A stretch of DNA of 50,659 nt from a virus. Taxonomy: Duplodnaviria > Caudoviricetes. Location: positions 1 to 50,659 of IMG/VR virus record IMGVR_UViG_3300022699_000112; one strand, given 5' to 3'. A program made the position numbers and the translations under genes. Shown here piece by piece: positions 1 to 50,659 of the stretch (position 1 is its first letter; the number at the start of each line of letters is the position of its first letter). A model generated the notes under the pieces. It saw only the letters and a list, made by a program, of their open reading frames with translations. It did not search any database and was not told the origin of the DNA.

Positions 1-99
1 CCTACGGCCACGCCATTGGTGGTGCCCACACCGACTGTTTCGAATTGCGTAACTGTGACGATATTGAAATCGTTGCTAACTATATCCACCACTGGAAAA
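1..99. repeat. Terminal direct repeat, copy 1 (circular-assembly overlap)
   Basis: Bases 1-99 are identical to 50561-50659 and the reading frame runs straight through the junction. Confidence 0.97.
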
Positions 100-3000
100 G
101 TAATGCCGCTCTATTTATCAATGGTGGAGGTTATGGACGGGTCAACCGTTTGTTCATAGCCAACAATATCATGTATAATAATTGGGGTGCAGCCCACTGT
201 TTGCAGCTTCAGAATGTCGATACGGTCGAGGTTTATAACAATATTCTGTGGGGAAGTTCTTCTACCGTATGGGGTGAGTTCAGCGTCGCTCCTACGACCA
301 TGACAAACCTGACTCTCCGTAACAACATTATCGGGAGATTCTTCTTCGAACAACAGTCGTGGAATCCGGCTTGGGTAGCCGATCACAACTTCTATGTTAC
401 CGCTAATGGATACATTCCGGGCACAGGAGATATTCAAGGCACCGACCCGGGCTTCACTAATGTTCCAGCAGTTACCGCCACAGCAAACACGTCAGCTACC
501 ATAGCTGATTTCCAACCTCTGAATGAATCAGTAATCACTGTCGATGCCGGTACCACGATCACCAAGGTAGCTTATGATATCCGTCGTTTGGCTAGACCTC
601 AAGGGTCTTCGTATGACATCGGTCCTTTCGAGTACGGCGGCATAGCAGCTACCGGTGCTTGTTGTAACGAACTCACCGGTGAATGTAGTATCACCACCGA
701 AGCTAATTGCCAGCATACTTGGCTCGGAGCCGGAAGCACTTGTGCTGATTGTCACGTCGAAGAACCCACGCCTCTTGAGGGCCTCGTCGTCAGTTACAAC
801 TGTAACGAAGAAGCCACGGACTACACAGCTACAGATGCGTCCGGTCACGGAACCACCGGCTACCTCATCAACACCAATGCCGGATTTGGTGCCGGTCTTA
901 CACGTTTCGATGGTGAGGGTCGCGTATTTTTCGAAAACATCCATGATGGAATAGAGTTAGATACTACCGATATTCAGACAGAACGCGGAAGTATCTGTGC
1001 TGCTATTTTCCCGCAGGTCGTAACAGATACCGTCCAACCTGCCCGGTATGTCTTTGGTCACTCTGTCAATGCTTGGAGCCGCCGAATCCAGATATACATT
1101 CAGGATGGATATCTCCATGTCGGTATGGGCGACAACCACTCAGTCGGGGCCAACGCGTACGCCGTTTCTGTAGATACTTGGTATCATGTCTGCCTGACTT
1201 GGCTTGATAACGGAATTACTATCTCTGACGGGGCGGCTACTGGAACTCTTACCGGTTCGGGTACTTGGCAGTTCTATGTAAACGGAACTCTTGTAACCTC
1301 CGGCACTTATTCTGGTCTGGACTTCTTACAGGCCAAGGTCCGCTTCGGGAACACCGGACTCCAATCCGAACCTTACGATCAGGAAGCCTTTGACGGTTAT
1401 ATGGATAACCTCAAAGTATACGATGTCCCTCTATCGGCTTCACAGGTACTTACAGTAGCCACAAACGATACACCGACTATTGTTCCGGGACCCGAACCGA
1501 TTGAGGCCCCGACAATTACAAACGGGTCCGTATCAAATATCGGCACTACCACGGCCACAATAGCCGGGTCGGTAGTCGATACTGGCGGGGCTAATCCCAC
1601 GGCTATCCTCTATTACGGAACTTCTGATGAGGGGGAGGTAGCTGCTAATTGGGATAGCTCTATCAACTTAGGTACCCAACTCGGCTCTATTGAAGTCGCT
1701 CTCGGGCAGCTTGACCATAACACCACATATTATTTCCGATTCTATGCCTCCAACGAGGGCGGTGAAGATTGGGCAGACAGTACCTCTAGTTTTACTACAT
1801 TGGAGATCACTGCCCCGACCCTTACTCAAAATGCCGCCTCAGATATCGGTACCACCTCGGTAACTCTCTCGGGTACGATAACCGATGAGGGTAACGACAC
1901 GCCCCGCGTATACGTCTACTATGGCGAAACCGATGAGGGTACGGTGGGGGCAAATTGGGACAGTTTTGAACTGACTACATATAATGAATCGGATAACACC
2001 TTTACCATAACCTTAACGGGCCTGACCGCCGACACAACATACTACTTCCGCTTTTACGCGGTAAACGACATAGGTGGTACTTGGGGCAGCAGCACTCTTA
2101 CGTTTGATACGAATCCGTCAGGAGCACCTACTGTAACCAATGCAGTAGCTTCGGATATCGGAGCACATGAAGCCCGCATTGGCGGTACTGTTACAGATGT
2201 CGGTCTTGAGAATCCCACCGTAACGGTTTATTGGGGTACAGCCGATGGCGGGACTACTCCGGGGAATTGGGACAACTCCGCTGCTTTTGGAGTCCAAACC
2301 GGGGCGTTCAATACCCTGCTCACCAACCTCAATCTGGCGACCGTCTATTATTACCGGGCCTATGCAGAGAACAGCTATGGCTCTGATTGGGCTGATTCTA
2401 CGCAGTCATTCAGTACGCTGGAACAGGAACCGATCAGTCCAGACCCGAACGAAAAAGACGACGGTTTTATCTGGGGGTCTTATGATAATGCGTACGAAAT
2501 AGTCACCCCCTATTCATCCGATGAAGCTTTTGATCTGCACAAGGTTTCCCGAGGCGACGTAACCTATATCGCCCACGAAAACCACGCCCCTCGTAAGCTC
2601 ACCCGCTATGGGGATAAGAATTGGGTACTTGAGGTAGTCGATTTTACCGGCGGTCCTTTCCTCGACCTAAACCAAGACAGCACTAAAACGGTCCAATATG
2701 TCAACGGAACCGGAGGTACTTCAGGCAACTACTATACCATAGGCAACACGGGTACATTGGATGCCTCAGGCCATACTCCGTTCTTGGAACAGCATGTAGG
2801 GGCCTTGTGGGAAATCGAACACACCCGCAATGACAACTCCTTGGAGACACCCGACAATACTACCCATGCAACCCCCACGGGTTCAGGCATTAAGTGTAAG
2901 GGTCACTGGCAGTTCGACGTGTCGAATATGTCAGGTGGTACCCCGAACTACACCGCCAAAATCTGGCGTAAAGAGGGCAACGGTAGCTGGCAGGAATACC

Positions 3001-4487
3001 AGCACTACAGTGCCGCTACACTGGACAGCGGGGACGAAGAAGCTGAGGACGTTTACTACACGTTCACTACCAACCACGCCGATGTGAACGGGGTCTTTAC
3101 GGCCACGAATCAAACCAACAAAGGCATAGTAAAGATCACCTCTTATGTTTCGTCGGCACAAGTAGCGGTAGAAGTTATCTCTCCAATTTATCAAGAAAGC
3201 GGAACTTCATCGGCTACTCCTATGTGGGCTGAGGGTGCTTGGAGCGATTACCGAGGCTACCCTAAATCCGTAACATTCTTTGGAAATCGTCTCTGGTGGG
3301 CTGGGACGACAAACAACCCACAGACATTATGGGGTTCTAAAGTCGGTTATTATGAAGACCACACCAAGGGTGAAGCAGACGATGCAGCCGTAATCATAGG
3401 TATTTCTGATAACGATGTGTCTTCTATTGAGTGGATATCGGCCTCTCAGAACTTCATGGTGGGTTCTGCTCGCAAGGAGTATATTATCTCGGCGGCAGAC
3501 CGGAATGACCCGATCACCCCGGACGACAACATCGCCAAGCCCCACTCCACAAATGGTTCAATGCACATTCAGCCGGTGGAATTCGGTGGAGGCATGATGT
3601 ACGCTCAGCGGCTTGGTTACAAGATGCTAGTACTCCACTATAAGTATTTAGACGATGCCTACGATTCCGCAGATGCTACGCGACTGGCTTCACATATGTT
3701 CAAATATCTACCGGTCGATATATCGCGTCAGGGTACCCCAGAATCCATTATCTGGGTAAGCCGGGCCGATGGTACCCTCTGTTCATTTAGGTACGACAGA
3801 GACGAGGAAATCGCGGCGTGGAGCCGTATTGTGACTGGTGATGTTTCAGCCAGCCCCACACACGCCATACTGTCCTCGGCGGTCGTAGCCGGAACCCAAG
3901 AAGACAGAATCTGGACACAGGTTGAACGGTACGTCGATGGGGAATTCCGCTATTACATTGAGCGGTTCTCGAATCGCACATTTACCTCTCTTACCGAGGG
4001 TAACTATCTCGACAGCATCCGCACCAGAACTGCGGACAGTCTAGGTCGTCTTACTCGACTGTATGGCCTTGAGGGGCACACCACAACAGTAATGCAGGGG
4101 GCTACTAAGATCGGTACCTACACTGTTCAAGATGGAATGATTACAGGACTGACGGCTAACCAGACATATACAGTCGGTTTACCGTATTCGGCTCATCTAA
4201 AAACAATGCAGTTCGCTGTTCCCGGAGCCGTAGTAGAGGGCAACATTAAACGGATAACAAACATCCTTATTCGTTACGTCCAGACGGAGGGCGGGCAGGT
4301 CGGAGCCATATCCCACGGCCAGAATAATCTGGTTGATCTGGATGCTTCATTCTCTCTATCTTCGGACGATATTGAAGTGTTCTCCGGGGGAGGTTTTGAC
4401 AAGGACGGTCGTCTGGCCCTATACTTCACCGAACCTTACCCGGCTACAATACTGGCGGTCGTGTTTGAGATCGAGATCATTGCATGA
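3..4487 (+). CDS. 3' part of giant virion protein (starts at 48388, 2219 aa in total): end of beta-helix, Cys-rich module, LamG domain, three FN3-like repeats, then C-terminal ~664 aa of tail tubular protein B (nozzle)
   Basis: In frame with 48388 across the overlap. Motifs: DIRRLARPQGSSYDIGPFEY (beta-helix end); LamG-like WYHVCLTW...FDGYMDNLKVYDVPLS; three repeats of TxYYxRxYAxNxxG; from nt 2493 YEIVTPY...GDVTYIAH...GYPKSVTFFGNRLWWAG...AWSR, typical of podovirus nozzle proteins. Confidence 0.88.
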   Translation, partial: YGHAIGGAHTDCFELRNCDDIEIVANYIHHWKSNAALFINGGGYGRVNRLFIANNIMYNNWGAAHCLQLQNVDTVEVYNNILWGSSSTVWGEFSVAPTTMTNLTLRNNIIGRFFFEQQSWNPAWVADHNFYVTANGYIPGTGDIQGTDPGFTNVPAVTATANTSATIADFQPLNESVITVDAGTTITKVAYDIRRLARPQGSSYDIGPFEYGGIAATGACCNELTGECSITTEANCQHTWLGAGSTCADCHVEEPTPLEGLVVSYNCNEEATDYTATDASGHGTTGYLINTNAGFGAGLTRFDGEGRVFFENIHDGIELDTTDIQTERGSICAAIFPQVVTDTVQPARYVFGHSVNAWSRRIQIYIQDGYLHVGMGDNHSVGANAYAVSVDTWYHVCLTWLDNGITISDGAATGTLTGSGTWQFYVNGTLVTSGTYSGLDFLQAKVRFGNTGLQSEPYDQEAFDGYMDNLKVYDVPLSASQVLTVATNDTPTIVPGPEPIEAPTITNGSVSNIGTTTATIAGSVVDTGGANPTAILYYGTSDEGEVAANWDSSINLGTQLGSIEVALGQLDHNTTYYFRFYASNEGGEDWADSTSSFTTLEITAPTLTQNAASDIGTTSVTLSGTITDEGNDTPRVYVYYGETDEGTVGANWDSFELTTYNESDNTFTITLTGLTADTTYYFRFYAVNDIGGTWGSSTLTFDTNPSGAPTVTNAVASDIGAHEARIGGTVTDVGLENPTVTVYWGTADGGTTPGNWDNSAAFGVQTGAFNTLLTNLNLATVYYYRAYAENSYGSDWADSTQSFSTLEQEPISPDPNEKDDGFIWGSYDNAYEIVTPYSSDEAFDLHKVSRGDVTYIAHENHAPRKLTRYGDKNWVLEVVDFTGGPFLDLNQDSTKTVQYVNGTGGTSGNYYTIGNTGTLDASGHTPFLEQHVGALWEIEHTRNDNSLETPDNTTHATPTGSGIKCKGHWQFDVSNMSGGTPNYTAKIWRKEGNGSWQEYQHYSAATLDSGDEEAEDVYYTFTTNHADVNGVFTATNQTNKGIVKITSYVSSAQVAVEVISPIYQESGTSSATPMWAEGAWSDYRGYPKSVTFFGNRLWWAGTTNNPQTLWGSKVGYYEDHTKGEADDAAVIIGISDNDVSSIEWISASQNFMVGSARKEYIISAADRNDPITPDDNIAKPHSTNGSMHIQPVEFGGGMMYAQRLGYKMLVLHYKYLDDAYDSADATRLASHMFKYLPVDISRQGTPESIIWVSRADGTLCSFRYDRDEEIAAWSRIVTGDVSASPTHAILSSAVVAGTQEDRIWTQVERYVDGEFRYYIERFSNRTFTSLTEGNYLDSIRTRTADSLGRLTRLYGLEGHTTTVMQGATKIGTYTVQDGMITGLTANQTYTVGLPYSAHLKTMQFAVPGAVVEGNIKRITNILIRYVQTEGGQVGAISHGQNNLVDLDASFSLSSDDIEVFSGGGFDKDGRLALYFTEPYPATILAVVFEIEIIA

Positions 4488-4954
4488 GATTAGAGAGATT
4501 TAAAGCCGAGCATTGGCATCTGGAAGACCCTTTTGAGGTCCTAGAAGCCCCTGACGACACAGGGGTTAAATTGGCTGAACAGGGTATAGCGTTTACCGCT
4601 TTTGACGGGGATACCCCGGTAGCATGTGGGGGATTCCTGTTCTGGGCTGAGAATGAGGCCGAGGCTTGGATTCGAATCTCAAAGCGAATAGGGGACAACC
4701 TTTATCCGGCATTAAAGGCTATTAGTGACGGACTAGCTATTTTGCGTCGTATATATGACGGACAAGTATTCTGCTGGGTCGATGATTCATGGCCCAAAGC
4801 CCAAAGGCTAGTCCAGTGGCTCGGTTTCAATAAGACCGATACCCAAAAAGAACATGACGGTACAATCTACTTTCTCTGGGAACTAAACAATGGCAGTAGC
4901 ACTTCTGGCAGCAGGGTTGGTAGCCACAGTAGCGGGCGGGATTCAACAGGCTAA
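4484..4954 (+). CDS. GNAT-fold virion-associated protein (T7 gp13-like position)
   Basis: PVACGG..W...AEAW and AQRLVQWLGF pattern; directly follows the nozzle gene. Confidence 0.65.
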   Translation: MRLERFKAEHWHLEDPFEVLEAPDDTGVKLAEQGIAFTAFDGDTPVACGGFLFWAENEAEAWIRISKRIGDNLYPALKAISDGLAILRRIYDGQVFCWVDDSWPKAQRLVQWLGFNKTDTQKEHDGTIYFLWELNNGSSTSGSRVGSHSSGRDSTG

Positions 4955-36912: not shown

Positions 36913-37321
36913 TACTGGATATACTTGGGGGTCTTGGGCCTTTGTTCAAAAAGGGGCGGGAAACTGGTCCGCTGACGACTTGGCTGATGCGGCTACCGAA
37001 ACGGGGGATGCTACCTCGATAGACGGTAAAGCGGCTGCTCTAGTCTCGGTTACGGCTGTGGAAGACAATACCGGTGCTATAGACGGTGAGGTGACGGTTT
37101 ATATCCTTGGGGACATAGACGGCACTAATTATGAAGAAACCACCATAGGCAACCCCTATAAGGTTACTTTCACCCCCGTACAGAACGATACCGTCCGAGT
37201 TATCATTCCTGTCGACCCTAGAGTTTATAAGAACTTCAAGGTAGCTATCGAGAATCAGGGGGGCCAGACCCTCGCAATGTCCGTCAGACTCATCACCGCA
37301 GATATCCCGGCAGCTTCATAA
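36905..37321 (+). CDS. Putative virion beta-sandwich protein
   Basis: GGAGG RBS; Thr/Ala/Gly-rich, beta-rich composition. Confidence 0.6.
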   Translation: MANTGYTWGSWAFVQKGAGNWSADDLADAATETGDATSIDGKAAALVSVTAVEDNTGAIDGEVTVYILGDIDGTNYEETTIGNPYKVTFTPVQNDTVRVIIPVDPRVYKNFKVAIENQGGQTLAMSVRLITADIPAAS

Positions 37322-38229
37322 TGATTGAACTTCTAACCAAACCACATCTTGGTTTTCTCCAATCCAACGACTGGAAACAACACCCCGTCTTTCACGGGCT
37401 GATCGGTTGCTGGCCTATGGTCGAGGGCGGTGGGAATCGCCTTACCGATATTTCAGGCTACATGAACCACGGCACAATCAATGGTGCAACATGGGTCGGG
37501 ACTCCTTGGGGTCCGGGCCTTTCTTTTGACGGGTCTGATGATTATGTAAACTGCGGGGCTATGCACGCTTGGGGCGTGGCGAACACAAAAACCTCCGACC
37601 CCCCACCTCAATTTACCGGACACTTGGGGTTTTCGGTAGTAGCGTGGTGTCGAACCAGTTCAAGTTCCCGGCAGGCAATTCTGGCCTCAGACTGCTTGGG
37701 GTTTAGTGACGAACCCGAAATCGGGCTTCTCTTAAACCATACCTCTACCGGCTGGGGTGAATCGACAGGGAACCATTGGGGCGGGTCGATTCTTTACACC
37801 AACAAGGACCGGGTAGCTACAGTTTCCAGTAATTCCACCCCCTATAACGGGGAATGGCACATGATAGGTTGTGCGAACGCGGGGGAGCGGAATGACCTAC
37901 TGGCCTTTTATCTCGACGGAGAGGATGTAACAGCAGCCACCACGACCGATACTTATGGGTATGGGGAATGGGAAATTCAATCCTATGTAGCAATTGGGGC
38001 CACTTCTGACACCGCCGGGGGTACTCCGACCTACTTCTTCAACGGACAAATGACCCTCGTGATGATGTGGAATCGAGCCATTACCGCCGATGAGGCCGCA
38101 ATGTTATACAGGTTGGGACCGGGTGGAATTTTCCGAAATGAGTTCAACCCGGGCTATTATGGGGCGATAAATCTCGGAACCCCTGACTTTAATCCCGCAT
38201 GGACTATTAACTGTAATCAGGTACTATAA
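37321..38229 (+). CDS. LamG/concanavalin-A-like virion protein
   Basis: GLIGCWPMVEGGG...DISG..NHGT...LSFDGSDDYV...WHMI...FNGQM....WNRAITADE. Confidence 0.85.
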   Translation: MIELLTKPHLGFLQSNDWKQHPVFHGLIGCWPMVEGGGNRLTDISGYMNHGTINGATWVGTPWGPGLSFDGSDDYVNCGAMHAWGVANTKTSDPPPQFTGHLGFSVVAWCRTSSSSRQAILASDCLGFSDEPEIGLLLNHTSTGWGESTGNHWGGSILYTNKDRVATVSSNSTPYNGEWHMIGCANAGERNDLLAFYLDGEDVTAATTTDTYGYGEWEIQSYVAIGATSDTAGGTPTYFFNGQMTLVMMWNRAITADEAAMLYRLGPGGIFRNEFNPGYYGAINLGTPDFNPAWTINCNQVL

Positions 38230-39677
38230 TGCTTAAAAAGAACACCACAGGACAATTTTTATACTTTGGACTGGTCAGTACGGTTGATGGGTCCGCAGTT
38301 ACCGGAGCTTCGCCCTCTGGTTATGTGTCTCTCGACGGAGCCGCTCAGGGGGCAGTCGGGGGAAGTATTACCGAAGTCGGTAACGGTCAATATAAGCTGG
38401 CCTGCAATGCTGGCGACCTCAATGGGGACGAATGTGGTTTCCTTTTCACCGCCGCCGGAGCGGTACCAGTCAGTCTCACAGTTACTACGGAAACGAAGAA
38501 AATGGCCGATCTCAATGATCTGGCTGCTGGGGCATTGATGGGCTTAGCCAATGACGCTATTACCGCCGCCAAATTCGATGAGAGTACAGCATTCCCCCTT
38601 AAATCCGCTGATACCGGGGCTACACAGATCGCTCGTACGGGTGCTGATGGAGATACTTTGGAGTCTCTCTCTGACCAGATCGACGGACTCCCCACCGATG
38701 CTGACGTAAATGCTGCTTGTGACACGGCTTTGGCCGATATTCACCTTGACCATCTTCTGGGCACTGCTTACGCTGGTGAGGGAACTGCCGGGTCCATTCT
38801 CAAAGACCTCTTGGAAGATGATGGAGGTACCTATCGGTTCACGTCTAACGCCCTTGAACAAGGTCCTGCGGCTACTGCTGACGCGACCGAAGCTAACCAG
38901 ACGACAATTATTAACCACCTTACGGACATTAAAGGAACTGGTTTTGTTAAAGATACGGACTCAATGGTGGATTTGGCCCATATTGGTGCAGACGGAGACA
39001 CCCTCGAAACCCTTTCGGACCAACTGGATGCCATCCCCGATGCCGCCGCAATCAACGCCGAAGTGGACACGGCCCTTGCCGACATACACCTTGACCACCT
39101 CTTGGCAGCAGACTATGACCCAAGTTCCAAACCCGGAGTGGCAACAGCTTTACTGAATGAAATTATAGAGAACGATGGTGGAGTTTCTCGATTCACCGCT
39201 AACGCTCTGGAACAGGCACCCGGGGCAACAGGTGATGCTTCGGAGGCGAATCAGACTACCATCATCAATCATCTTACGGATATCAAGGGTACCGGGTTCG
39301 TTAAAGATACCGATTCGTTGGTGGACCTCGCACACATTGGGGCTGACTCGGATACCCTTGAAACTTTAAGCGATCAGTTGGATGCTATGGACACCAAGAT
39401 CGACACCATTGACGGTATTGTAGATGATATCCTTACAGATACTGGAACTACGCTTGATGGTAAGATCGACACTGCCGACGCGGTTGCGGACTCTATTCTG
39501 GCTATCCTCCAAGGCGACCACGAGATCAACACTGCCACCTCTCCTTGGAGGCAACTTATCAAGGACAAGACAACCAGTTCTACGCTGGTGGAAAAGGAAA
39601 TGTTTGAGGAAGATGGGTCTACGGGTGTAACGGCTACGACTCAAGTTGTGGGTGCTCTCAAGGAGCCGAGTGCTTAA
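38229..39677 (+). CDS. Acidic repeat-containing putative fibre/virion protein
   Basis: N-terminal ITEVGNGQYKL baseplate/fibre-like domain followed by ~115-118-aa tandem repeats. Confidence 0.65.
   Translation: MLKKNTTGQFLYFGLVSTVDGSAVTGASPSGYVSLDGAAQGAVGGSITEVGNGQYKLACNAGDLNGDECGFLFTAAGAVPVSLTVTTETKKMADLNDLAAGALMGLANDAITAAKFDESTAFPLKSADTGATQIARTGADGDTLESLSDQIDGLPTDADVNAACDTALADIHLDHLLGTAYAGEGTAGSILKDLLEDDGGTYRFTSNALEQGPAATADATEANQTTIINHLTDIKGTGFVKDTDSMVDLAHIGADGDTLETLSDQLDAIPDAAAINAEVDTALADIHLDHLLAADYDPSSKPGVATALLNEIIENDGGVSRFTANALEQAPGATGDASEANQTTIINHLTDIKGTGFVKDTDSLVDLAHIGADSDTLETLSDQLDAMDTKIDTIDGIVDDILTDTGTTLDGKIDTADAVADSILAILQGDHEINTATSPWRQLIKDKTTSSTLVEKEMFEEDGSTGVTATTQVVGALKEPSA
38640..39387 (+). 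repeat. Intragenic tandem repeat, ~345-354 nt period (two full copies plus a partial)
   Basis: GADxDTLExLSDQxD occurs three times; DTALADIHLDHLL and EANQTTIINHLTDIKGTGFVKDTDS occur twice. Confidence 0.9.
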
Positions 39678-46644: not shown

Positions 46645-47373
46645 ATGGCTTTATCTACAGTCGAACAGGTATATCAAGAAGCAGTGGACCTCATTGGCGA
46701 GCACCAGCTTACCGACACCAGCCCAACTGGACAGAAACCTTATTCGACTTGTGCCATCCACTATCCTAGAGCACGGGATGAAATCATTCGGGGTTATGCT
46801 TGGAATGAAGCAACCGAACTGGCCCTGTGTCTTCAGGATTCCACCACACCGGCCCACACATGGACCTATCGCTTTCTTAAACCCAGCGATTGTCTACGCA
46901 TAATTACTACTTCTCGCCCTAAACAAAAGTGGCGTGTTATTGGCAATTACATCTACACCGACTATAAGTATACCCCCGGTTCATACACTGTGGGTACATC
47001 GTATACGGCAGGTCAGTATCTTTCATACAGCAGCGTCACCTACCAAGTCACGGCGGCCTTTACAGCTACTTCTTGGGCTGCTGACGCATCTAAATGTACT
47101 TCCAAGGGCGGGGATTATGGCTACATCGAAGTCGAGTACGCCAAACAACTAAGCGACCCCACCACATGGTCTGCCCAGCTTCGGCAAGCTATCGTTCTCA
47201 ACCTTGCCACCAAAATCGTTATCCCGATCACCAGCGACTACCAGCGGCGAACGTCTCTATTGGAAGAACTTTGGAAGATGGTTCTGCCCCATGCGTTTGC
47301 TTTGGATGCTATTGAGGGGAAACCCAAACAATTTTTCTATTCTGATTTTATTGATTCACGCGGAGAAGCATAA
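46645..47373 (+). CDS. Tail tubular protein A (adaptor) with inserted CBM5/12-like module
   Basis: A.DLIGE, YPRARDEIIR.YAWN.A, YRFLKPSDCLRI, LATKIVIPIT; insert YTVGTSYTAGQYLSYSSVTYQVTAAFT. Confidence 0.8.
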   Translation: MALSTVEQVYQEAVDLIGEHQLTDTSPTGQKPYSTCAIHYPRARDEIIRGYAWNEATELALCLQDSTTPAHTWTYRFLKPSDCLRIITTSRPKQKWRVIGNYIYTDYKYTPGSYTVGTSYTAGQYLSYSSVTYQVTAAFTATSWAADASKCTSKGGDYGYIEVEYAKQLSDPTTWSAQLRQAIVLNLATKIVIPITSDYQRRTSLLEELWKMVLPHAFALDAIEGKPKQFFYSDFIDSRGEA

Positions 47374-47840
47374 TGGTAACTGAAACTGTTCGCATGGGTT
47401 GGTCCGACCCCAGAGGGGCCATAGCTACGGATGATACTCTAGTATCGGCTGCTGTCGGTACCATGAAATTTGCCAACGTACCGGCTCACGCGTACAAACC
47501 GGATACTCGACAGAATGCCCTTGAAGTCGCATTTACTATGGACGCTGACGGGTCCGCCTGCGTTGCCTATCTTTTCGCGGCCCGGGAGAACGGGGATATT
47601 GTACTGGTATGGACTGGTACTTTGACAGCCGGAACCCAGCAGGCCACTGATGGCGGGACTTGGGTAGACACTTTCGGTTCTACCACCGATAACTGGATTA
47701 CCACGATCAAGGAAGTGGATGCCGGAGGAAACAACCGCATGGCCCGACTCGTGCTCGATACCTGCGGCTACAAATACTTCTTCTGTCAGTATACCGGACT
47801 GTCCAGCGAAACCGTAAAGGCATTCTTCTCAGGATTCTAA
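47373..47840 (+). CDS. Hypothetical virion protein
   Basis: TAATG-coupled on both sides, between adaptor and nozzle. Confidence 0.6.
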   Translation: MVTETVRMGWSDPRGAIATDDTLVSAAVGTMKFANVPAHAYKPDTRQNALEVAFTMDADGSACVAYLFAARENGDIVLVWTGTLTAGTQQATDGGTWVDTFGSTTDNWITTIKEVDAGGNNRMARLVLDTCGYKYFFCQYTGLSSETVKAFFSGF

Positions 47841-48388
47841 TGGCTGCCAAGAAATTTATTCAAACGTCATTCAACGCCGGTGAATTGTCGGAGACAATGG
47901 CCGGTCGTGTTGATTTTCAGAAATACTTTAACGGTGTCGCTGAAATGGTCAACATGATTCCTCTTAAACAGGGGGGTGCCACCAAACGCCCCGGTCTGGA
48001 ATTTGTGGCCGAGACAAAGGGTAAGGCAAAGCTCCTGCCCTTTGAATTTTCTGTAGAAGACACCGTAGTTCTGGAAATGGGCGAGTACTATCTCCGTTTT
48101 TACACGGAGGCAGGGCCGGTACAAGTAGATAACCCGACACCGGATACCAATTTTGTTCAGCTAGGGACCTACAAATGGTATGAGTCTTCTTCTGGTTATG
48201 ATGAATATTACGCCGCCACACCCAGCGGTACTGACCCGTCTATCACCAAACCGGACAAACTGTTCGAACGGTCTATCCGCATGACCGAGGGGACTCTTGG
48301 CTCTCTTGCACGGGGCGAATGGGCTTATGGGGATAATGACTCTCTAGGCTTCAACACAATATATGTACGACTTACTCTGAGGGCGTAA
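47840..48388 (+). CDS. N-terminal fragment of tail tubular protein B (nozzle) plus a small appended module
   Basis: IQTSFNAGELS..MAGRVDFQKYFNG...N....QGGATKRPGLEFV...LLPFEFS.....VLEMGEYYLRFY is the canonical nozzle N-terminus, but the ORF is only 182 aa. Confidence 0.85.
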   Translation: MAAKKFIQTSFNAGELSETMAGRVDFQKYFNGVAEMVNMIPLKQGGATKRPGLEFVAETKGKAKLLPFEFSVEDTVVLEMGEYYLRFYTEAGPVQVDNPTPDTNFVQLGTYKWYESSSGYDEYYAATPSGTDPSITKPDKLFERSIRMTEGTLGSLARGEWAYGDNDSLGFNTIYVRLTLRA

Positions 48389-50659
48389 TGGCTAATTCCT
48401 TAACCCGGAATAACATCACTTGGGTATTTGATAAGGAGATCACCCTCTCAGGGGCAGGTGGTACTTATCAGTACGGGCAATATTGTACCGGCGATTACTG
48501 GATTGTAGGACCAGTAACAATCACCAGTATACCCGGAGTCAACGGGGCAGAGATTAACCCAATAGCTGATGGAATACATCAGGGATTAGCAGCATCCGGG
48601 GCGGCTCAGTATTCCAGTTCTCGCGATGTGACTACGAGCATTCCGCTGACGATTCAGCCCGGGTCTTCTCTCATTACAGCAGCAGGTACTGGAAATTGCG
48701 GAACTTATGAGGGGGACCGTTGTGATATTACTTACTGTTCAGTTTTGACGGTGGTAACTTCGCCTCCCCCAACAGGCAGTTTCCGTCCCGGCTATGCTGG
48801 GTCTAATAAAACCATAATGGGGAATGAAAGCGATATCCGTTATGACCGCCTAGGCCGCGTTAATATTATCACTGGCGGCGAATCTATAACAGGACATGCT
48901 AACCGCTGGCGACATTGTAAACCCTCTCACCAAGGGGAGCACTACTACCCGGATACCACACCTTGTGGACATGATTTTGATTGTTATGGCACTGTTCTCG
49001 CTAGTCAGCTTGGCGAGGCTGTCCTTACGGCAAACTGCAACTACACACAGGCTGAAAAACGTGATCTGGTCGTAGGGCTGGTTCAGCACGGCATAGATGT
49101 CTACAGCGTAATCCAAGCCCGAACTCCCGGGTCCGCCTGTTGGAATCCCAATGGCGGCCATATATATTTTTCGGGCTTGGCGGCCATGTTTGCAGGGGCA
49201 CTCTTAGACAATGCCGATATTCTTGGTGTATTTCAAAAAACAGGGGTCTATCTTTATACAGGTGCCTACGGAGCGGGAAATCCCCCACCGGATTATTGGG
49301 GTTGTATAAACAATCAGGTCTTTTACGTCAAACAAGAAGATATTGACCGAGGTGTAGGATATACAGAAACCCACCGGGGTATGCCGGAATGGGGTATTAA
49401 CCACTCCAAAGCTCCGGCTGGACGCAACCCGGATACCCCCTCATGGACGGCTCCCTACCGCCAGAATTCCAGTGCTTCTGGTTGGGGTGCTGGCATACTG
49501 GCTATGCACATTATGTCCGGCCAAGGATTCAATGTCCGTAGCCTCTGGAATAACTATGCCGTATTCGATTACCAAGATCGGTTTGTTGCTATAGAGGGTC
49601 CGAGTAACGACTTCTTTCGCCACCGAAACGCCTCTTGGGTACGATCTATGTGGAACACTTATCGCTCCGCATACCCCCCGGTATGGCCTGCATCTGGGTC
49701 CACAGATACTACCCCACCTCTAGCTCCGTCGAGTCTGATATCTCCGCAACAATCGGACACAACAATCTCCCTTAGCTGGACTGCGGCAGGTCAGGCTGCT
49801 GACGGTGATTACCCGGTTGGCTATCGAATCTATCGAGACTCTGTGTTGATTGATTCTGTCACGGGCACAACCTATACTGATTCCGGTCTTACTGCCTCCA
49901 CATCGTACGACTATGAAATCTATTCTTACGATGATGCCAACCTTGAATCTTCCTCGGCAGCTACGGGTACGTTCTCCACAGAAGCATCTGCCCCTGCCGT
50001 AACAGCCGTATACATCAATGGTGCTGGTAGCGACTCCAATGACGGTTCTTCTTGGACACAGGCACTCCGTAATCTTCCGGCTACTCTAGTCCGGGGTACT
50101 ACCTACTACATTGGGTCGGGTGTATTTAGTTCTTATAATTTCAATGATGCCGCCGGAGCCGAATGGATTAACATTAAAAAAGCTACCCTCACCAGCCACG
50201 GAACCGAAACCGGTTGGAATACCGCATACGCTTCCCGGGCACAGTTTGGTAACTTGACATTTACCAGCACCTCCAATATCCTTATCGACGGTATGGACAG
50301 AAACCTGCTTATTCAGCATGTCTCGGGAACTACCAAGCTGATAAGCTTCTCGGGTACCAGTTCTTATATCACAGTCCAGAATTGTGAACTCAACGGCATG
50401 AATGGCGGTACTTCAGTGATGTCTGATGCCCTCGTGTATACCGCAGGTGGCGTGGGAACTTATGTCTCATTCCTAAACAACTACATGCACGACTTTGGGG
50501 ATGATGGTCTTTATATCGGGGAGAATTGCCATCACTGGTACGTCCGCTTCAATGAAATAGCCTACGGCCACGCCATTGGTGGTGCCCACACCGACTGTTT
50601 CGAATTGCGTAACTGTGACGATATTGAAATCGTTGCTAACTATATCCACCACTGGAAAA
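48388..50659 (+). CDS. 5' part of giant virion protein (continues into 3-4487): N-terminal domain, FN3, right-handed beta-helix; not in the ORF track
   Basis: ATG in TAATG overlap with GAGG RBS; MANSLTRNNITWVFDK...QYGQYCTGDYWIVGPVTI; FN3 DTTPPLAPSSL...ISLSWTA...GYRIYRD...YTDSGLTASTSYDY; no stop called in this frame before the contig end. Confidence 0.88.
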   Translation, partial: MANSLTRNNITWVFDKEITLSGAGGTYQYGQYCTGDYWIVGPVTITSIPGVNGAEINPIADGIHQGLAASGAAQYSSSRDVTTSIPLTIQPGSSLITAAGTGNCGTYEGDRCDITYCSVLTVVTSPPPTGSFRPGYAGSNKTIMGNESDIRYDRLGRVNIITGGESITGHANRWRHCKPSHQGEHYYPDTTPCGHDFDCYGTVLASQLGEAVLTANCNYTQAEKRDLVVGLVQHGIDVYSVIQARTPGSACWNPNGGHIYFSGLAAMFAGALLDNADILGVFQKTGVYLYTGAYGAGNPPPDYWGCINNQVFYVKQEDIDRGVGYTETHRGMPEWGINHSKAPAGRNPDTPSWTAPYRQNSSASGWGAGILAMHIMSGQGFNVRSLWNNYAVFDYQDRFVAIEGPSNDFFRHRNASWVRSMWNTYRSAYPPVWPASGSTDTTPPLAPSSLISPQQSDTTISLSWTAAGQAADGDYPVGYRIYRDSVLIDSVTGTTYTDSGLTASTSYDYEIYSYDDANLESSSAATGTFSTEASAPAVTAVYINGAGSDSNDGSSWTQALRNLPATLVRGTTYYIGSGVFSSYNFNDAAGAEWINIKKATLTSHGTETGWNTAYASRAQFGNLTFTSTSNILIDGMDRNLLIQHVSGTTKLISFSGTSSYITVQNCELNGMNGGTSVMSDALVYTAGGVGTYVSFLNNYMHDFGDDGLYIGENCHHWYVRFNEIAYGHAIGGAHTDCFELRNCDDIEIVANYIHHWK
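50561..50659. repeat. Terminal direct repeat, copy 2 (circular-assembly overlap)
   Basis: Identical to bases 1-99. Confidence 0.97.

What the first reader, a model, noticed from the sequence alone, without database searches (positions are those of the whole stretch)
47840..50659. Split tail nozzle carrying a ~1,550-aa adhesin/depolymerase-like cargo
Seen: the canonical nozzle N-terminus (~95 aa, to YLRFYTEAG) is in a 182-aa ORF ending TIYVRLTLRA-stop. The nozzle sequence resumes only at YEIVTPY (nt 2493), after 1,555 aa of a separate ORF. That ORF starts at a TAATG overlap with its own GAGG RBS, the same coupling used throughout this operon. The two nozzle parts sum to ~760 aa, a normal nozzle size. 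The cargo is N-domain, FN3, beta-helix, Cys module, LamG and 3xFN3. From recollection, the small module GDNDSLGFNTIYVRL normally continues directly into a DP..K.DG motif, which here lies after the cargo (SPDPNEKDDGF). This suggests a whole surface-protein gene landed inside a nozzle loop and split the gene. Inference: the nozzle is assembled from two polypeptides and displays giant receptor-binding or polysaccharide-degrading arms, an architecture I do not know to be described.
Basis: partly seen in the sequence, partly recalled or inferred. Interest (0 to 1): 0.85.

Follow-up and report, generated by a model that had tools for sequence, protein, structure and literature searches.

The report
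Split phage nozzle with giant arms
In a group of uncultivated short-tailed phages the gene for the tail-tip 'nozzle' is cut in two, and the larger piece carries a roughly 1,550-residue arm resembling secreted bacterial sugar-binding proteins, so the nozzle itself probably recognises or digests the host surface.

Summary
PHROG family phrog_376 (podovirus nozzle / tail tubular protein B, 712 positions) is matched at positions 1-100 by the 182-aa ORF1 (47840..48388) and at positions 99-709 by the last 670 aa of a 2,219-aa ORF2. ORF2 runs from 48388 across the 99-nt end overlap of the circular contig to 4487. No other nozzle gene is in the genome.

The split is not an error. 47 protein clusters of 181-183 aa (64-77% identity) were found, and all 29 of the 48 (window's own included) that I aligned end in the same RLTLR-x tail. 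12 related loci show the stop followed by a 'MAN.L..N.ITWTFDKE' ORF, with three different junction layouts. ORF1 is under purifying selection.

All 7 forms with a 1,520-1,780-aa cargo, the window included, lack the N-part and form one clade. That clade is nested among unsplit nozzles carrying 0-560-aa inserts at the same site. A complex model places ORF1 against the nozzle C-part (0.87, best control 0.25).

The cargo is colinear with signal-peptide-bearing stand-alone proteins. Its function as receptor-binding or glycan-degrading arms is inferred. Two-chain nozzles were published in 2026 (PhiXacm4-11, A1002), so this is a new variant.

The parts
47840..48388 (+). ORF1, 182 aa: the small nozzle chain (N-part plus small module), stop TAA 48386-48388
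47840..48130 (+). ORF1 residues 1-97: nozzle N-part (profile positions 1-100 of phrog_376; aligns to residues 9-104 of PDB 8ck1_A 'Tail Nozzle')
   Evidence: modelled contacts with the C-terminal region of ORF2
48131..48385 (+). ORF1 residues 98-182: small module (GTYKW...GDNDSLGFNTIYVRL) plus conserved tail TLRA
48379..48390 (+). Junction: GAGG (48379-48382), TAA stop of ORF1 (48386-48388) sharing one base with ATG of ORF2 (48388-48390)
48388..50659 (+). ORF2, first part (residues 1-757), running off the window end into the 99-nt overlap
1..4487 (+). ORF2, second part (nt 1-99 repeat 50561-50659; frame from nt 3; stop at 4485-4487); whole ORF2 = 2,219 aa
48388..49707 (+). ORF2 residues 1-440: N-domain (beta-sandwich plus helical part), no Pfam family, very common in secreted multidomain proteins
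49723..49953 (+). ORF2 residues 446-522: fibronectin type III domain
   Evidence: PF00041, E 3.5e-05, just under Pfam's cut-off; 7.4e-12 in the L008 orthologue
49990..50659 (+). Right-handed beta-helix region, first half (ORF2 residues 535-757)
   Evidence: fold of the L008 orthologue
100..653 (+). Beta-helix region, second half (to about ORF2 residue 942)
654..760 (+). Cys-rich module GACCNELTGECSITTEANCQHTWLGAGSTCADCH
   Evidence: conserved in orthologues
945..1448 (+). LamG / concanavalin-like domain (Laminin_G_3)
   Evidence: E 2e-09
1506..2417 (+). Three FN3-like repeats of about 100 aa (starts at nt 1506, 1812, 2124)
2436..2468 (+). SPDPNEKDDGF: the DP..K.DG segment that directly follows the small module in unsplit nozzles
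   Evidence: modelled to touch ORF1
2475..4487 (+). Nozzle C-part (profile positions 99-709 of phrog_376; PDB 8ck1_A E 2.4e-42)

Best explanation
This is a complete circularly assembled podophage genome. Its structural operon runs terminase, portal, capsid, adaptor, nozzle, internal virion proteins. The nozzle (tail tubular protein B) is encoded as two separately translated polypeptides.

The two chains. ORF1 (182 aa) supplies the first ~97 residues of the nozzle fold and an ~85-residue surface module. By analogy with T7 gp12, those ~97 residues are strands of the platform barrel that sits under the adaptor. ORF2 (2,219 aa) supplies the rest of the nozzle in its last ~670 residues. Its first ~1,540-1,555 residues form an N-terminal arm with the order N-domain, FN3, right-handed beta-helix, Cys-rich module, LamG, 3x FN3-like.

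Origin (inferred). A gene of a family of secreted multidomain glycan-binding/degrading proteins, without its signal peptide and without a stop codon, was placed in the short linker between the small module (..YVRLT) and the DP..K.DG segment. That site tolerates in-frame inserts of 0-560 aa in relatives.

Why the chain is broken (inferred). The two ends of that linker lie next to each other. A long extended arm therefore cannot be carried as a closed loop. Keeping the break (stop plus coupled restart) frees the arm's N-terminus to point away from the tail.

Assembly (supported by a model, not shown). The two chains re-form one nozzle subunit by strand complementation. Six such pairs would give a hexameric nozzle with six arms.

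Function (inferred). The arms bind, and perhaps cleave, host surface polysaccharide, making the nozzle itself a receptor-binding organ.
For: Shown by sequence.
- The profile is split at positions 99/100, and the genome has only these two matches.
- The gene order is that of a podovirus structural module.
- 47 of 54 non-self hits to ORF1 are 181-183 aa at 64-77% identity. 29 of 29 aligned (29 of the 48 incl. own) end in RLTLR-x.
- 12 of 12 split-type loci have the TAA. Ten have the TAATG overlap. L006 has TAA-GGC-ATG in frame. L036 has a 18-nt spacer with a second stop and its own AAGGG. L008 and L037 are the same sequence.
- No slippery heptamer usable for a -1 shift was found in 12 of 12 sequences. 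The two heptamers found lie upstream of a -1-frame stop.
- Over 66 pairs the median pN is 0.16-0.21 against pS of about 0.8. The tail RLTLRA is kept through synonymous changes.
- ORF2 is colinear end to end with the 2,238-aa L008 orthologue.

Split versus cargo size.
- Of 93 proteins with the nozzle C-part (821-2,615 aa), the 6 with 1,521-1,782 aa before it all lack the N-part and start MAN/MAS.
- 83 have the N-part. 16 of those carry 470-562-aa inserts, mostly LamG.
- On a FastTree of 97 C-parts the 7 split forms are one clade (100*). They sit inside a 17-row clade (100*) with unsplit, insert-bearing nozzles.

Complex model. The score is 0.87 and the best of 3 controls is 0.25. That mark was reached by 58 of 80 solved complexes and 2 of 110 mismatched pairs. 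The runs share at least 86% of contacts and the partner pLDDT is at least 79. There are about 410-445 contacts. ORF1 residues 3-108 lie against chain residues 2-67, 419-531, 586-598 and 661-683. ORF1 residues 176-181 also touch.

T7 gp12 precedent. The platform barrel takes three strands from the N-terminal 45 residues (PMC6702177, passages read).

Cargo origin. P0141, P0131, P0206 and P0259 are colinear with the cargo (24 of 158 hits extend beyond the N-domain). They carry signal peptides just before the ..GITWTFD.. start. Named cluster members come from Planctomycetota MAGs.

Beta-helix. The model of the L008 orthologue matches chondroitinase B, pectate lyases, PL6 alginate lyases and tailspikes.
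Against: Missing data. There are no reads, no transcript, no virion proteomics and no structure. No sequencing run was listed, so read support at 48380-48390 is untested.

Complex model. The pass is what one expects for halves of a family whose single-chain structure is solved (8ck1 and others). It shows likeness rather than binding, and own alignments were used, so the calibration counts hold only roughly.

Arm function.
- The N-domain model is confident (pLDDT 90) but has no clear structural match. Foldseek gave 0 matches at E <= 0.001. VIA-align gave a best Z of 5.0 and 0 chains at Z >= 8.
- The beta-helix model is mediocre (mean pLDDT 61; residues 329-481 are under 50). Its matches are weak (best E 7e-4, TM about 0.3).
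- No catalytic residues were examined.

Other points.
- Classical tailspikes are trimers, whereas these arms would be single chains on a hexamer.
- The genome has other candidate fibres, p302 with LamG and p482, so the arms need not be the primary receptor binder.
- The direction of evolution rests on a midpoint-rooted FastTree.
- One relative (L034) has a 1,027-aa ORF2, which I read as a chimeric contig end.
Confidence: 0.8

Rival explanations
1. The split is an artefact: a sequencing or assembly indel, or a recent pseudogenising mutation in one genome.
For: ORF2 lies in the -1 frame of ORF1 with a one-base overlap, which a single-base error could create. Read support could not be examined.
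Against: The same stop recurs in 12 of 12 related loci from independent assemblies, at 64-77% protein identity. 47 protein clusters are 181-183 aa long. The junction has three different layouts, two of them in frame with one or two stops. ORF1 shows pN 0.16-0.21 against pS of about 0.8.
Confidence: 0.01
2. Recoding joins the two ORFs: a programmed -1 frameshift or stop read-through makes one ~2,400-aa nozzle with the cargo as a true internal insert.
For: The -1 frame is open for 15-17 codons before the stop in the window. Phage tail genes are known to use frameshifts (general knowledge, recalled).
Against: 10 of 12 sequences have no X XXY YYZ heptamer in the last 40 codons. The two that do have it upstream of a -1-frame stop. 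In L006 and L036 the ORFs are in the same frame, so a -1 shift would not join them, and L036 has two stops. ORF2 has its own ATG and a GAGG at the usual spacing. L036, whose start moved downstream, has its own AAGGG and has AGA in place of AGG.
Confidence: 0.03
3. ORF1 does not complete the nozzle. ORF2's C-part alone forms the nozzle ring, or a truncated one, and ORF1 has drifted to another role such as a chaperone or a decoration built on its small module.
For: The small module also occurs in 20 of 62 longer hits that are not nozzles, so it can work in other contexts. The complex pass may come from memory of single-chain nozzles.
Against: ORF1's N-part is the more conserved half (median pN 0.163 against 0.214 for the module). 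It still matches the nozzle profile and PDB 8ck1_A. In T7 the N-terminal strands are integral to the platform barrel (PMC6702177, passages). The genome has no other source of these strands. In the two solved two-chain nozzles the chains complement each other (PMC13730344 section 9; bioRxiv 10.64898/2026.02.16.706137 section 13).
Confidence: 0.06
4. The arms are not the receptor-binding or depolymerising organ. They are accessory adhesins, for instance weak binding to particles, slime or non-host glycans, or purely structural spacers. The host receptor is read by other proteins (p302/p482) or by the nozzle tip.
For: LamG and FN3/Ig-like modules often give weak accessory adhesion (general knowledge, recalled). 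p302 (Laminin_G_3, E 1e-10) and p482 lie before the terminase and are conserved in the clade. No catalytic site was identified.
Against: About 6.6 kb of a 50.6-kb genome is spent on ORF2 and kept colinear at 50-57% identity. The beta-helix matches polysaccharide lyase/hydrolase folds and tailspikes. The N-domain has invariant polar residues (R133, Y200, Q233, D237, Y357, R358, Y395) across 38 sequences.
Confidence: 0.25

Closest known systems
Xanthomonas phage PhiXacm4-11 nozzle, gp30:gp31 heterodimer x6 (bioRxiv 10.64898/2026.02.16.706137; passages and section 13 read)
   Same: The nozzle fold (platform, beta-propeller, fibre dock, tip) is built from two chains. Extra globular domains protrude radially. 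One of them, ED2, is formed by gp30 residues 96-175, the same position as the small module here.
   Different: The cut is elsewhere: gp30 is over 430 aa and its C-terminus lies about 6 A from the gp31 N-terminus. There is no large cargo and the fibres are a separate trimeric gp36. Sequence homology to ORF1/ORF2 was not tested here.
Pseudomonas phage A1002 'split nozzle', nozzle-rope gp39 + nozzle-base gp42 (PMC13730344; abstract, sections 9 and 12, figure legends read)
   Same: Platform and beta-propeller are completed by strands from a second protein. The second protein carries the host-recognition apparatus outward. Fibre genes lie between the two nozzle genes.
   Different: In A1002 the extra chain is a 300-A rope that docks separate fibre dimers. 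Here the arm is covalently part of the large nozzle chain, the small chain is only 182 aa, and the two genes are adjacent and translationally coupled. The paper reports no significant structural homologue for gp39.
Single-chain podovirus nozzles: Carin-1 gp44 (PDB 8ck1_A, named in PMC13730344), BPP-1 Bbp13, HTVC010P-type 'tail tubular protein B', T7 gp12
   Same: Same family by sequence: 8ck1_A gives E 1.1e-14 for ORF1 and 2.4e-42 for the C-part, and phrog_376 matches. Same position in the operon.
   Different: These are one polypeptide of about 680-860 aa with no insert or a small one at the site.
Unsplit metagenomic nozzles with LamG inserts at the same site (P0076, P0291-P0298 and others)
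   Same: Same family and the nearest branch on the tree. Same insertion site after residue ~97. The insert is a glycan-binding type of domain (Laminin_G_3).
   Different: The inserts are 470-562 aa and stay in frame as loops, with no break in the chain.
Stand-alone secreted multidomain proteins (P0141, P0131, P0206, P0259; P0123 named 'LamG-like jellyroll fold domain-containing protein', Anaerohalosphaeraceae MAG)
   Same: Same order of N-domain, fn3, beta-helix and LamG at about 25-36% identity. The mature N-terminus aligns with ORF2's start.
   Different: They carry a signal peptide and have no nozzle part. Whether any of them is the host's, or itself prophage-borne, is unknown.

Membership tests
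Podovirus nozzle / tail tubular protein B (phrog_376; Carin-1 gp44-like) | Sequence match along the whole family profile | tested here: met
   Positions 1-100 are matched by ORF1 (E 5.6e-32) and 99-709 by the ORF2 C-part (E 3.1e-115). PDB 8ck1_A matches. The match is spread over two ORFs.
Podovirus nozzle / tail tubular protein B (phrog_376; Carin-1 gp44-like) | Gene position: after the adaptor, before the internal virion proteins | tested here: met
   The order is adaptor-like phrog_394 at 46645, p155, ORF1, ORF2, p156, then internal virion protein phrog_418 at 4890. The same order holds in 8 related loci.
Podovirus nozzle / tail tubular protein B (phrog_376; Carin-1 gp44-like) | One polypeptide per subunit | tested here: not met
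   A stop lies between the parts in the window and in 12 of 12 related loci. No recoding signal was found.
Podovirus nozzle / tail tubular protein B (phrog_376; Carin-1 gp44-like) | [quoted passage not shown] | not testable with these tools
   Only a 1:1 pair was modelled. No coordinates were available for domain assignment.
Two-chain ('split') nozzles (PhiXacm4-11 gp30:gp31; A1002 gp39:gp42) | Two chains complement each other to rebuild one nozzle subunit | tested here: inconclusive
   The complex model scores 0.87 against a best control of 0.25, with over 400 contacts. A pass may reflect likeness to solved single-chain nozzles, and no experiment exists.
Two-chain ('split') nozzles (PhiXacm4-11 gp30:gp31; A1002 gp39:gp42) | Same cut site or sequence homology with the published pairs | not tested
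   By the papers' residue ranges the cuts differ (gp30 >430 aa; gp39 620 aa + gp42 398 aa). I did not fetch those sequences.
Right-handed beta-helix polysaccharide lyases/hydrolases and tailspikes | Parallel beta-helix fold | tested here: met
   The AF2 model of the L008 orthologue (51-57% identical) has pLDDT 65-90 over residues 1-328. Foldseek gives chondroitinase B at E 7.1e-4, pectate lyase II at 9.8e-4, then PL6 lyases, polygalacturonases and tailspikes. Pfam Beta_helix gives E 0.0015, under its cut-off. This is fold class only.
Right-handed beta-helix polysaccharide lyases/hydrolases and tailspikes | Catalytic residues / activity | not tested
   No active-site mapping was done. The model is too weak and the matches too distant.
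Right-handed beta-helix polysaccharide lyases/hydrolases and tailspikes | Trimeric tailspike assembly with an N-terminal anchor | not testable with these tools
   The arm is anchored by its C-terminus through the nozzle fold. Its oligomeric state is unknown.
Intein / intron / homing element as the intervening sequence | In-frame insertion with splicing domains, or a structured RNA | tested here: not met
   A stop codon separates ORF1 from the cargo. Pfam finds only fn3, LamG, beta-helix and related families in ORF2. No intergenic RNA space exists because the ORFs overlap by 1 nt. Rfam was not run.

The most novel reading that the evidence does not exclude
The break in the chain is the enabling invention. 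At a nozzle surface loop that already serves as a display site for small glycan-binding modules, a phage lineage captured a complete secreted host-type glycan-processing protein. By keeping a stop and restart at its 5' junction, it turned a closed loop into a free 1,550-residue arm. The nozzle thereby became a six-armed receptor-binding and possibly polysaccharide-degrading organ that needs no separate fibre docking.

The same family shows a second, independent cut with a fibre-tip gene between the pieces (L009). Cutting nozzle genes at insertion hotspots may therefore be a general route by which podophages rebuild their adsorption apparatus. The N-domain (1,803 representatives, no Pfam family, no structural match) would be a new family of carbohydrate-active or carbohydrate-binding domains.
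Probability: 0.35. Interest if true: 0.75.

Novelty: new variant of a known kind. Interest (0 to 1): 0.62.

Why it matters
Podovirus nozzles are usually treated as a conserved, single-chain gatekeeper, with host recognition left to separate fibres or spikes. Here a whole clade keeps the nozzle in two chains and hangs a very large glycan-directed arm directly on it.

If confirmed, this would have several consequences:
- It adds a third, genetically simple layout to the two-chain nozzles seen by cryo-EM in 2026.
- It identifies a natural, permissive display site on the nozzle (0 to ~560 aa in frame, ~1,550 aa with a break) that could be used for engineering.
- It gives a clear case of a cellular secreted protein cassette being recruited into a virion.
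- It flags an abundant uncharacterised domain family for biochemical study.
- It warns annotators that a 182-aa 'hypothetical protein' next to a giant 'tail fibre' can together be the nozzle.

Tried and rejected
- Read support: the look-up of sequencing runs listed none. No RNA holder was listed either.
- N-domain fold:
  - Foldseek against PDB gave no match at E <= 0.001. The weak rows were mostly (alpha/alpha)-barrel glycosidases/lyases and alpha2-macroglobulin.
  - VIA-align over 48,161 chains gave a best Z of 5.0, 0 at Z >= 8.
  - Together this is inconclusive. It is not evidence of a new fold.
- ESM Atlas gave only unnamed clusters.
- PDB by sequence for the beta-helix region found 0 hits at E <= 1.
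- Fused form with the big cargo:
  - It was not found among 93 C-part holders of 821-2,615 aa.
  - It was not found among the 150 best N-domain hits. ORF1 matched none of the 158 sequences (those hits plus cluster members) checked.
  - The ORF1 'longer' search covered only 320-2,000 aa.
- 'Two features under the match' in Stenotrophomonas phage BUCT708 and BPP-1 looked like possible splits. They are only the 1-nt overlap with the upstream gene, and both nozzles are single genes.
- L034's short (1,027-aa) ORF2: after the Cys-rich module the contig turns into AT-rich sequence with a DnaJ-like gene on the other strand. I read it as a chimeric contig end, not a variant.
- -1 frameshift: rejected.
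- The first tree attempt timed out in MAFFT. It was repeated with a faster alignment.
- Literature: searches found two-chain nozzles only in PMC13730344 and bioRxiv 10.64898/2026.02.16.706137. None described a nozzle chain carrying a large enzyme-like arm. The library lacks most subscription journals, and supplements were not seen.

Full report
WHAT IS THERE

The window is a complete virus record whose first and last 99 nt are identical. The unique length is 50,560 bp, and an ORF that runs off the 3' end continues at the 5' end.

ORF1 is 47840..48388 (182 aa). ORF2 starts at the ATG 48388, which shares its A with ORF1's TAA (TAATG). GAGG lies 5 nt upstream. ORF2 continues in frame from window nt 3 to the stop at 4485-4487, for 2,219 aa in all. 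The continuity across the ends is backed by the 2,238-aa orthologue in L008, which aligns end to end with both window pieces.

The same TAATG coupling is used at 6 of the 16 gene starts printed for this operon.

THE NOZZLE IS SPLIT

PHROG family phrog_376 ('tail protein', 712 positions) matches ORF1 residues 1-97 at profile positions 1-100 (E 5.6e-32). It matches the last ~670 residues of ORF2 at positions 99-709 (E 3.1e-115). A six-frame search of the whole record finds exactly these two places and no other.

By sequence, the only clear solved relative is PDB 8ck1_A, 'Tail Nozzle'. ORF1 residues 3-95 align to chain residues 9-104 (E 1.1e-14). The C-part aligns with E 2.4e-42. PMC13730344 names this entry Carin-1 gp44.

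In cultured relatives the two parts are contiguous in one gene: Pelagibacter HTVC010P-type phages, Burkholderia BcepC6B, Stenotrophomonas BUCT708 and Bordetella BPP-1. The surrounding genes are those of a podovirus structural module: terminase, portal, capsid, adaptor-like phrog_394, then ORF1/ORF2, then internal virion proteins.

THE SPLIT IS REAL AND CONSERVED

- A search among proteins of 100-319 aa gave 55 hits. Besides the window's own protein, 47 are 181-183 aa long at 64-77% identity and at least 98% coverage.
- I aligned 29 of these 48. All 29 end in RLTLR followed by A (24), V (3), T (1) or E (1).
- DNA of relatives was fetched from IMG/VR and metagenome contigs. In 12 of 12 split-type loci examined, ORF1 ends in TAA and an ORF beginning MAN.L / MASYL ...ITW.FD.E follows. 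L008 and L037 are the same sequence. L004's contig ends 13 nt after the stop.
- The junction has three layouts. Ten loci have the TAATG overlap with ORF2 in the -1 frame. L006 has TAA-GGC-ATG, in frame with one stop. L036 has a 18-nt spacer holding a second stop and its own AAGGG. These layouts cannot all be served by one recoding event.
- No usable slippery heptamer exists in any of the 12 sequences.
- ORF1 is under purifying selection. Over 66 pairs the median pN is 0.163 (N-part) and 0.214 (module), against pS of about 0.8, which is saturated.
- The last residues R-L-T-L-R-A are kept through synonymous changes. The one locus with a displaced ORF2 start uses AGA instead of the AGG that forms the GAGG in the others.

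THE INSERTION SITE

Unsplit relatives show what the local sequence should look like. In L001 (862 aa), L002, P0065, P0057 and P0056 the small module GTY.W...EWAYGDND.LG.NT.YV(R/K)L runs on within 3-6 residues into DPD.K..G(Y/F) and then ..Y(E/S)(I/V).(T/S)PY. In the window ORF1 stops 4 residues after YVRL. The sequence SPDPNEKDDGF...YEIVTPY reappears at ORF2 residues 1537-1562.

The site is an insertion hotspot.
- Among 62 longer proteins that match ORF1, 42 are unsplit nozzles. Between the N-part and the C-part they carry nothing, or about 50 aa (some with CBM_5_12), or about 75-85 aa, or more. P0056 has four copies of the small module. The other 20 are not nozzles and share only the small module.
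- Among 93 proteins of 821-2,615 aa that hold the nozzle C-part, 83 also hold the N-part. Their inserts run from none to 562 aa. Sixteen have 470-562 aa, mostly LamG domains.
- The six proteins with 1,521-1,782 aa in front of the C-part (2,207-2,468 aa in total) all lack the N-part and all start like ORF2.
- Four further proteins showed no N-part by BLASTP (P0335, P0351, P0371, P0373). They have at most ~190 aa before the C-part and may simply be divergent.
- No protein combines the N-part with the large cargo. None of the 158 N-domain-family sequences checked matches ORF1.

On a FastTree of 97 C-parts (673 columns, midpoint root) the seven split forms are one clade (100*) on a long stem. They sit inside a 17-row clade (100*) whose other members are unsplit nozzles with 143-560-aa inserts at the same site. 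A single origin from an insert-bearing, unsplit ancestor is the simplest reading. The rooting is not secured.

DO THE TWO CHAINS FIT?

I handed the 685-aa C-part (from EQEPISPDPNEK...) and ORF1, each with an alignment, to the complex predictor.
- The score was 0.87, 0.87 and 0.88 in three runs. The best of 3 controls was 0.25.
- That mark was reached by 58 of 80 solved complexes and 2 of 110 mismatched pairs.
- The runs agree in at least 86% of contacts, and the partner pLDDT is at least 79.
- The interface is very large, at 408-445 contacts.
- ORF1 residues 3-108 pack against the start of the C-part (residues 2-67) and against residues 419-531, 586-598 and 661-683 near its C-terminus.
- The module and ORF1's last residues (176-181) touch the DP..K.DG stretch.

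This is the pattern expected if ORF1 supplies strands of the platform barrel. In T7 gp12, three platform strands come from the N-terminal 45 residues and the rest from the C-terminal domain (PMC6702177, passages read).

The caveat is important. These are halves of a family with solved single-chain structures, so the pass shows likeness to them. It does not show that these copies bind. My own alignments were used, so the calibration counts hold only roughly.

THE CARGO

The domains in order are:
1. N-domain, residues 1-440.
2. fn3, residues 446-522.
3. A beta-helix region, about residues 535-942.
4. A Cys-rich module, residues 943-977.
5. Laminin_G_3.
6. Three FN3-like repeats, to about residue 1530.

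N-domain. It has no Pfam family, but it is very common: 1,803 representatives at E <= 0.001 in a 1.84-billion-protein library, 280 of them at E <= 1e-30. It occurs at N-terminal, internal and C-terminal positions in proteins of 430-3,989 aa. Its AF2 model is confident (pLDDT 90.1, pTM 0.93) and shows a beta-sandwich followed by a helical domain. Neither Foldseek nor VIA-align gave a convincing solved relative. Many of the weak rows are (alpha/alpha)-barrel carbohydrate-active enzymes, which is a lead only. Fourteen columns are invariant over 38 sequences, many of them polar.

Beta-helix. I modelled the L008 orthologue because the window's copy spans the contig ends. The model is mediocre (mean pLDDT 61; good over the first ~330 residues). 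It matches chondroitinase B, pectate lyases, PL6 alginate lyases, polygalacturonases, the PfbA adhesin and phage tailspikes at E 7e-4 to 2e-2. That establishes the fold class and no more.

Origin. 24 of the 158 N-domain-family sequences (the 150 best hits plus cluster members) share more than the N-domain with ORF2. P0141 (1,531 aa) is colinear from residue 35 to 1,387, and P0131, P0206 and P0259 are similar. Pfam finds the same order in them. These proteins start with typical signal peptides that end just before ..Q(F/W)GITWTFD.., the stretch that aligns with ORF2's MANSLTRNNITWVFD. Named cluster members come from Planctomycetota MAGs. The phage protein thus begins where the mature secreted protein begins. 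This fits capture of such a gene without its leader and without its stop codon. That is an inference.

MECHANISM PROPOSED

Shown:
- Two ORFs, conserved and separately initiated.
- Together they cover one nozzle profile.
- There is no other nozzle gene.
- The large cargo occurs only with the break.

Supported by a model: the two chains complement each other.

Inferred:
- In unsplit nozzles the module's last strand and the DP..K.DG segment are 3-6 residues apart. Anything inserted there must bring its two ends together.
- Compact LamG or CBM domains can do so. A ~1,550-residue string of domains meant to reach outward cannot.
- Leaving the chain open at the 5' junction makes the cargo an N-terminal extension of the large nozzle chain.
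- Reading outward from the nozzle, the order would be 3x FN3-like stalk, LamG, Cys module, beta-helix, fn3, then the N-domain at the tip.
- Six such arms would surround the tail tip and bind, perhaps cut, surface polysaccharide.
- Other candidate fibres exist: p302 with LamG and p482, both before the terminase and conserved in the clade. The arms may therefore be one of several adhesins.

COMPARISON WITH WHAT IS KNOWN

Two-chain nozzles are now in print. PhiXacm4-11 has a gp30:gp31 heterodimer x6 with four extra radial domains. One of these, ED2, is formed by gp30 residues 96-175, the position of the small module here (bioRxiv 10.64898/2026.02.16.706137, section 13). A1002 has a nozzle-rope gp39 plus a nozzle-base gp42, with platform and propeller completed across chains and fibre genes between the two nozzle genes (PMC13730344, sections 9 and 12).

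The present case differs in three ways:
- The cut site lies right after an ED2-like module.
- The sizes are extremely asymmetric (182 versus 2,219 aa).
- The recognition arm is covalently part of a nozzle chain rather than a docked fibre.

My searches found no description of such an arm on a nozzle. The library is incomplete and supplements were closed. I therefore rate it a new variant of a known kind.

SEEN IN PASSING

L009 is the nearest relative that is not cut at this site. Its nozzle is cut at a second site. An 837-aa ORF ends in a Cys-rich tail. A 133-aa Gp53-like_C fibre-tip protein and a 74-aa ORF follow. Then comes a 223-aa ORF whose last ~170 residues are the nozzle's C-terminus. 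P0065 ends in the same way as the 837-aa ORF. This suggests that cutting nozzle genes at insertion sites has happened more than once in this family.

Noticed in passing
L009:9995-13816: The nearest relative that is unsplit at the window's site has its nozzle cut at a second site. The order is an 837-aa ORF ending in a Cys-rich tail, a 133-aa Gp53-like_C tail-fibre-tip protein (E 3.2e-10), a 74-aa ORF, and a 223-aa ORF holding the nozzle's last ~170 residues. P0065 (761 aa, 3 member sequences) ends the same way. The layout recalls A1002, where fibre genes lie between the nozzle genes.
   Followed up: partly
window 48131-48385; L003:3569-6295; P0056: The ~85-aa small module of ORF1 is a mobile domain. 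20 of 62 longer hits carry it without any nozzle part, several of them with pectate-lyase/beta-helix Pfam families. L003 has it inside a 908-aa beta-helix protein next to the terminase. P0056 has four copies. Some nozzles carry it at a second loop (P0062, P0063, P0067). Its fold and role are unknown. PhiXacm4-11's ED2 sits at the same nozzle position, but homology was not tested.
   Followed up: partly
window 48388-49707: The ORF2 N-domain belongs to a very large uncharacterised family: 1,803 representatives at E <= 0.001, no Pfam family, and only phrog_34846 'unknown function'. The AF2 model is confident (pLDDT 90) but has no convincing solved relative. Homologues are signal-peptide proteins, and the named ones come from Planctomycetota MAGs.
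   Followed up: partly
window 47373-47840: A 155-aa gene with no family match lies between the adaptor-like gene and ORF1. It is translationally coupled on both sides and conserved at 66-76% identity in all 8 split-clade loci that reach it. L009 has a distant-looking 174-aa ORF in the same place, while L001 has none.
   Followed up: partly
window 37321-39677: Two genes lie just upstream of the terminase: 302 aa (Laminin_G_3, E 1e-10) and 482 aa (no family). Both are conserved in the clade and are candidate further fibres or adhesins.
   Followed up: partly
window 1-99 and 50561-50659: The 99-nt 'direct terminal repeat' lies inside the beta-helix coding region of ORF2. It looks like the overlap of a circularly assembled contig rather than a physical genome end.
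   Followed up: no
L034:11580-12446: ORF2 of this relative ends early at 1,027 aa, where the contig changes into AT-rich sequence with a DnaJ-like gene on the opposite strand. This is probably a chimeric contig end. The same 1,027-aa protein is a cluster representative (P0119).
   Followed up: partly
window 46645-47373; L009:8536-9486: The adaptor-like protein (phrog_394) has a weak CBM_5_12 hit (E 0.005, under the cut-off) at residues 114-145. The L009 counterpart is 316 aa and visibly carries repeated copies of a similar short motif. Surface glycan-binding modules may decorate the adaptor too.
   Followed up: no
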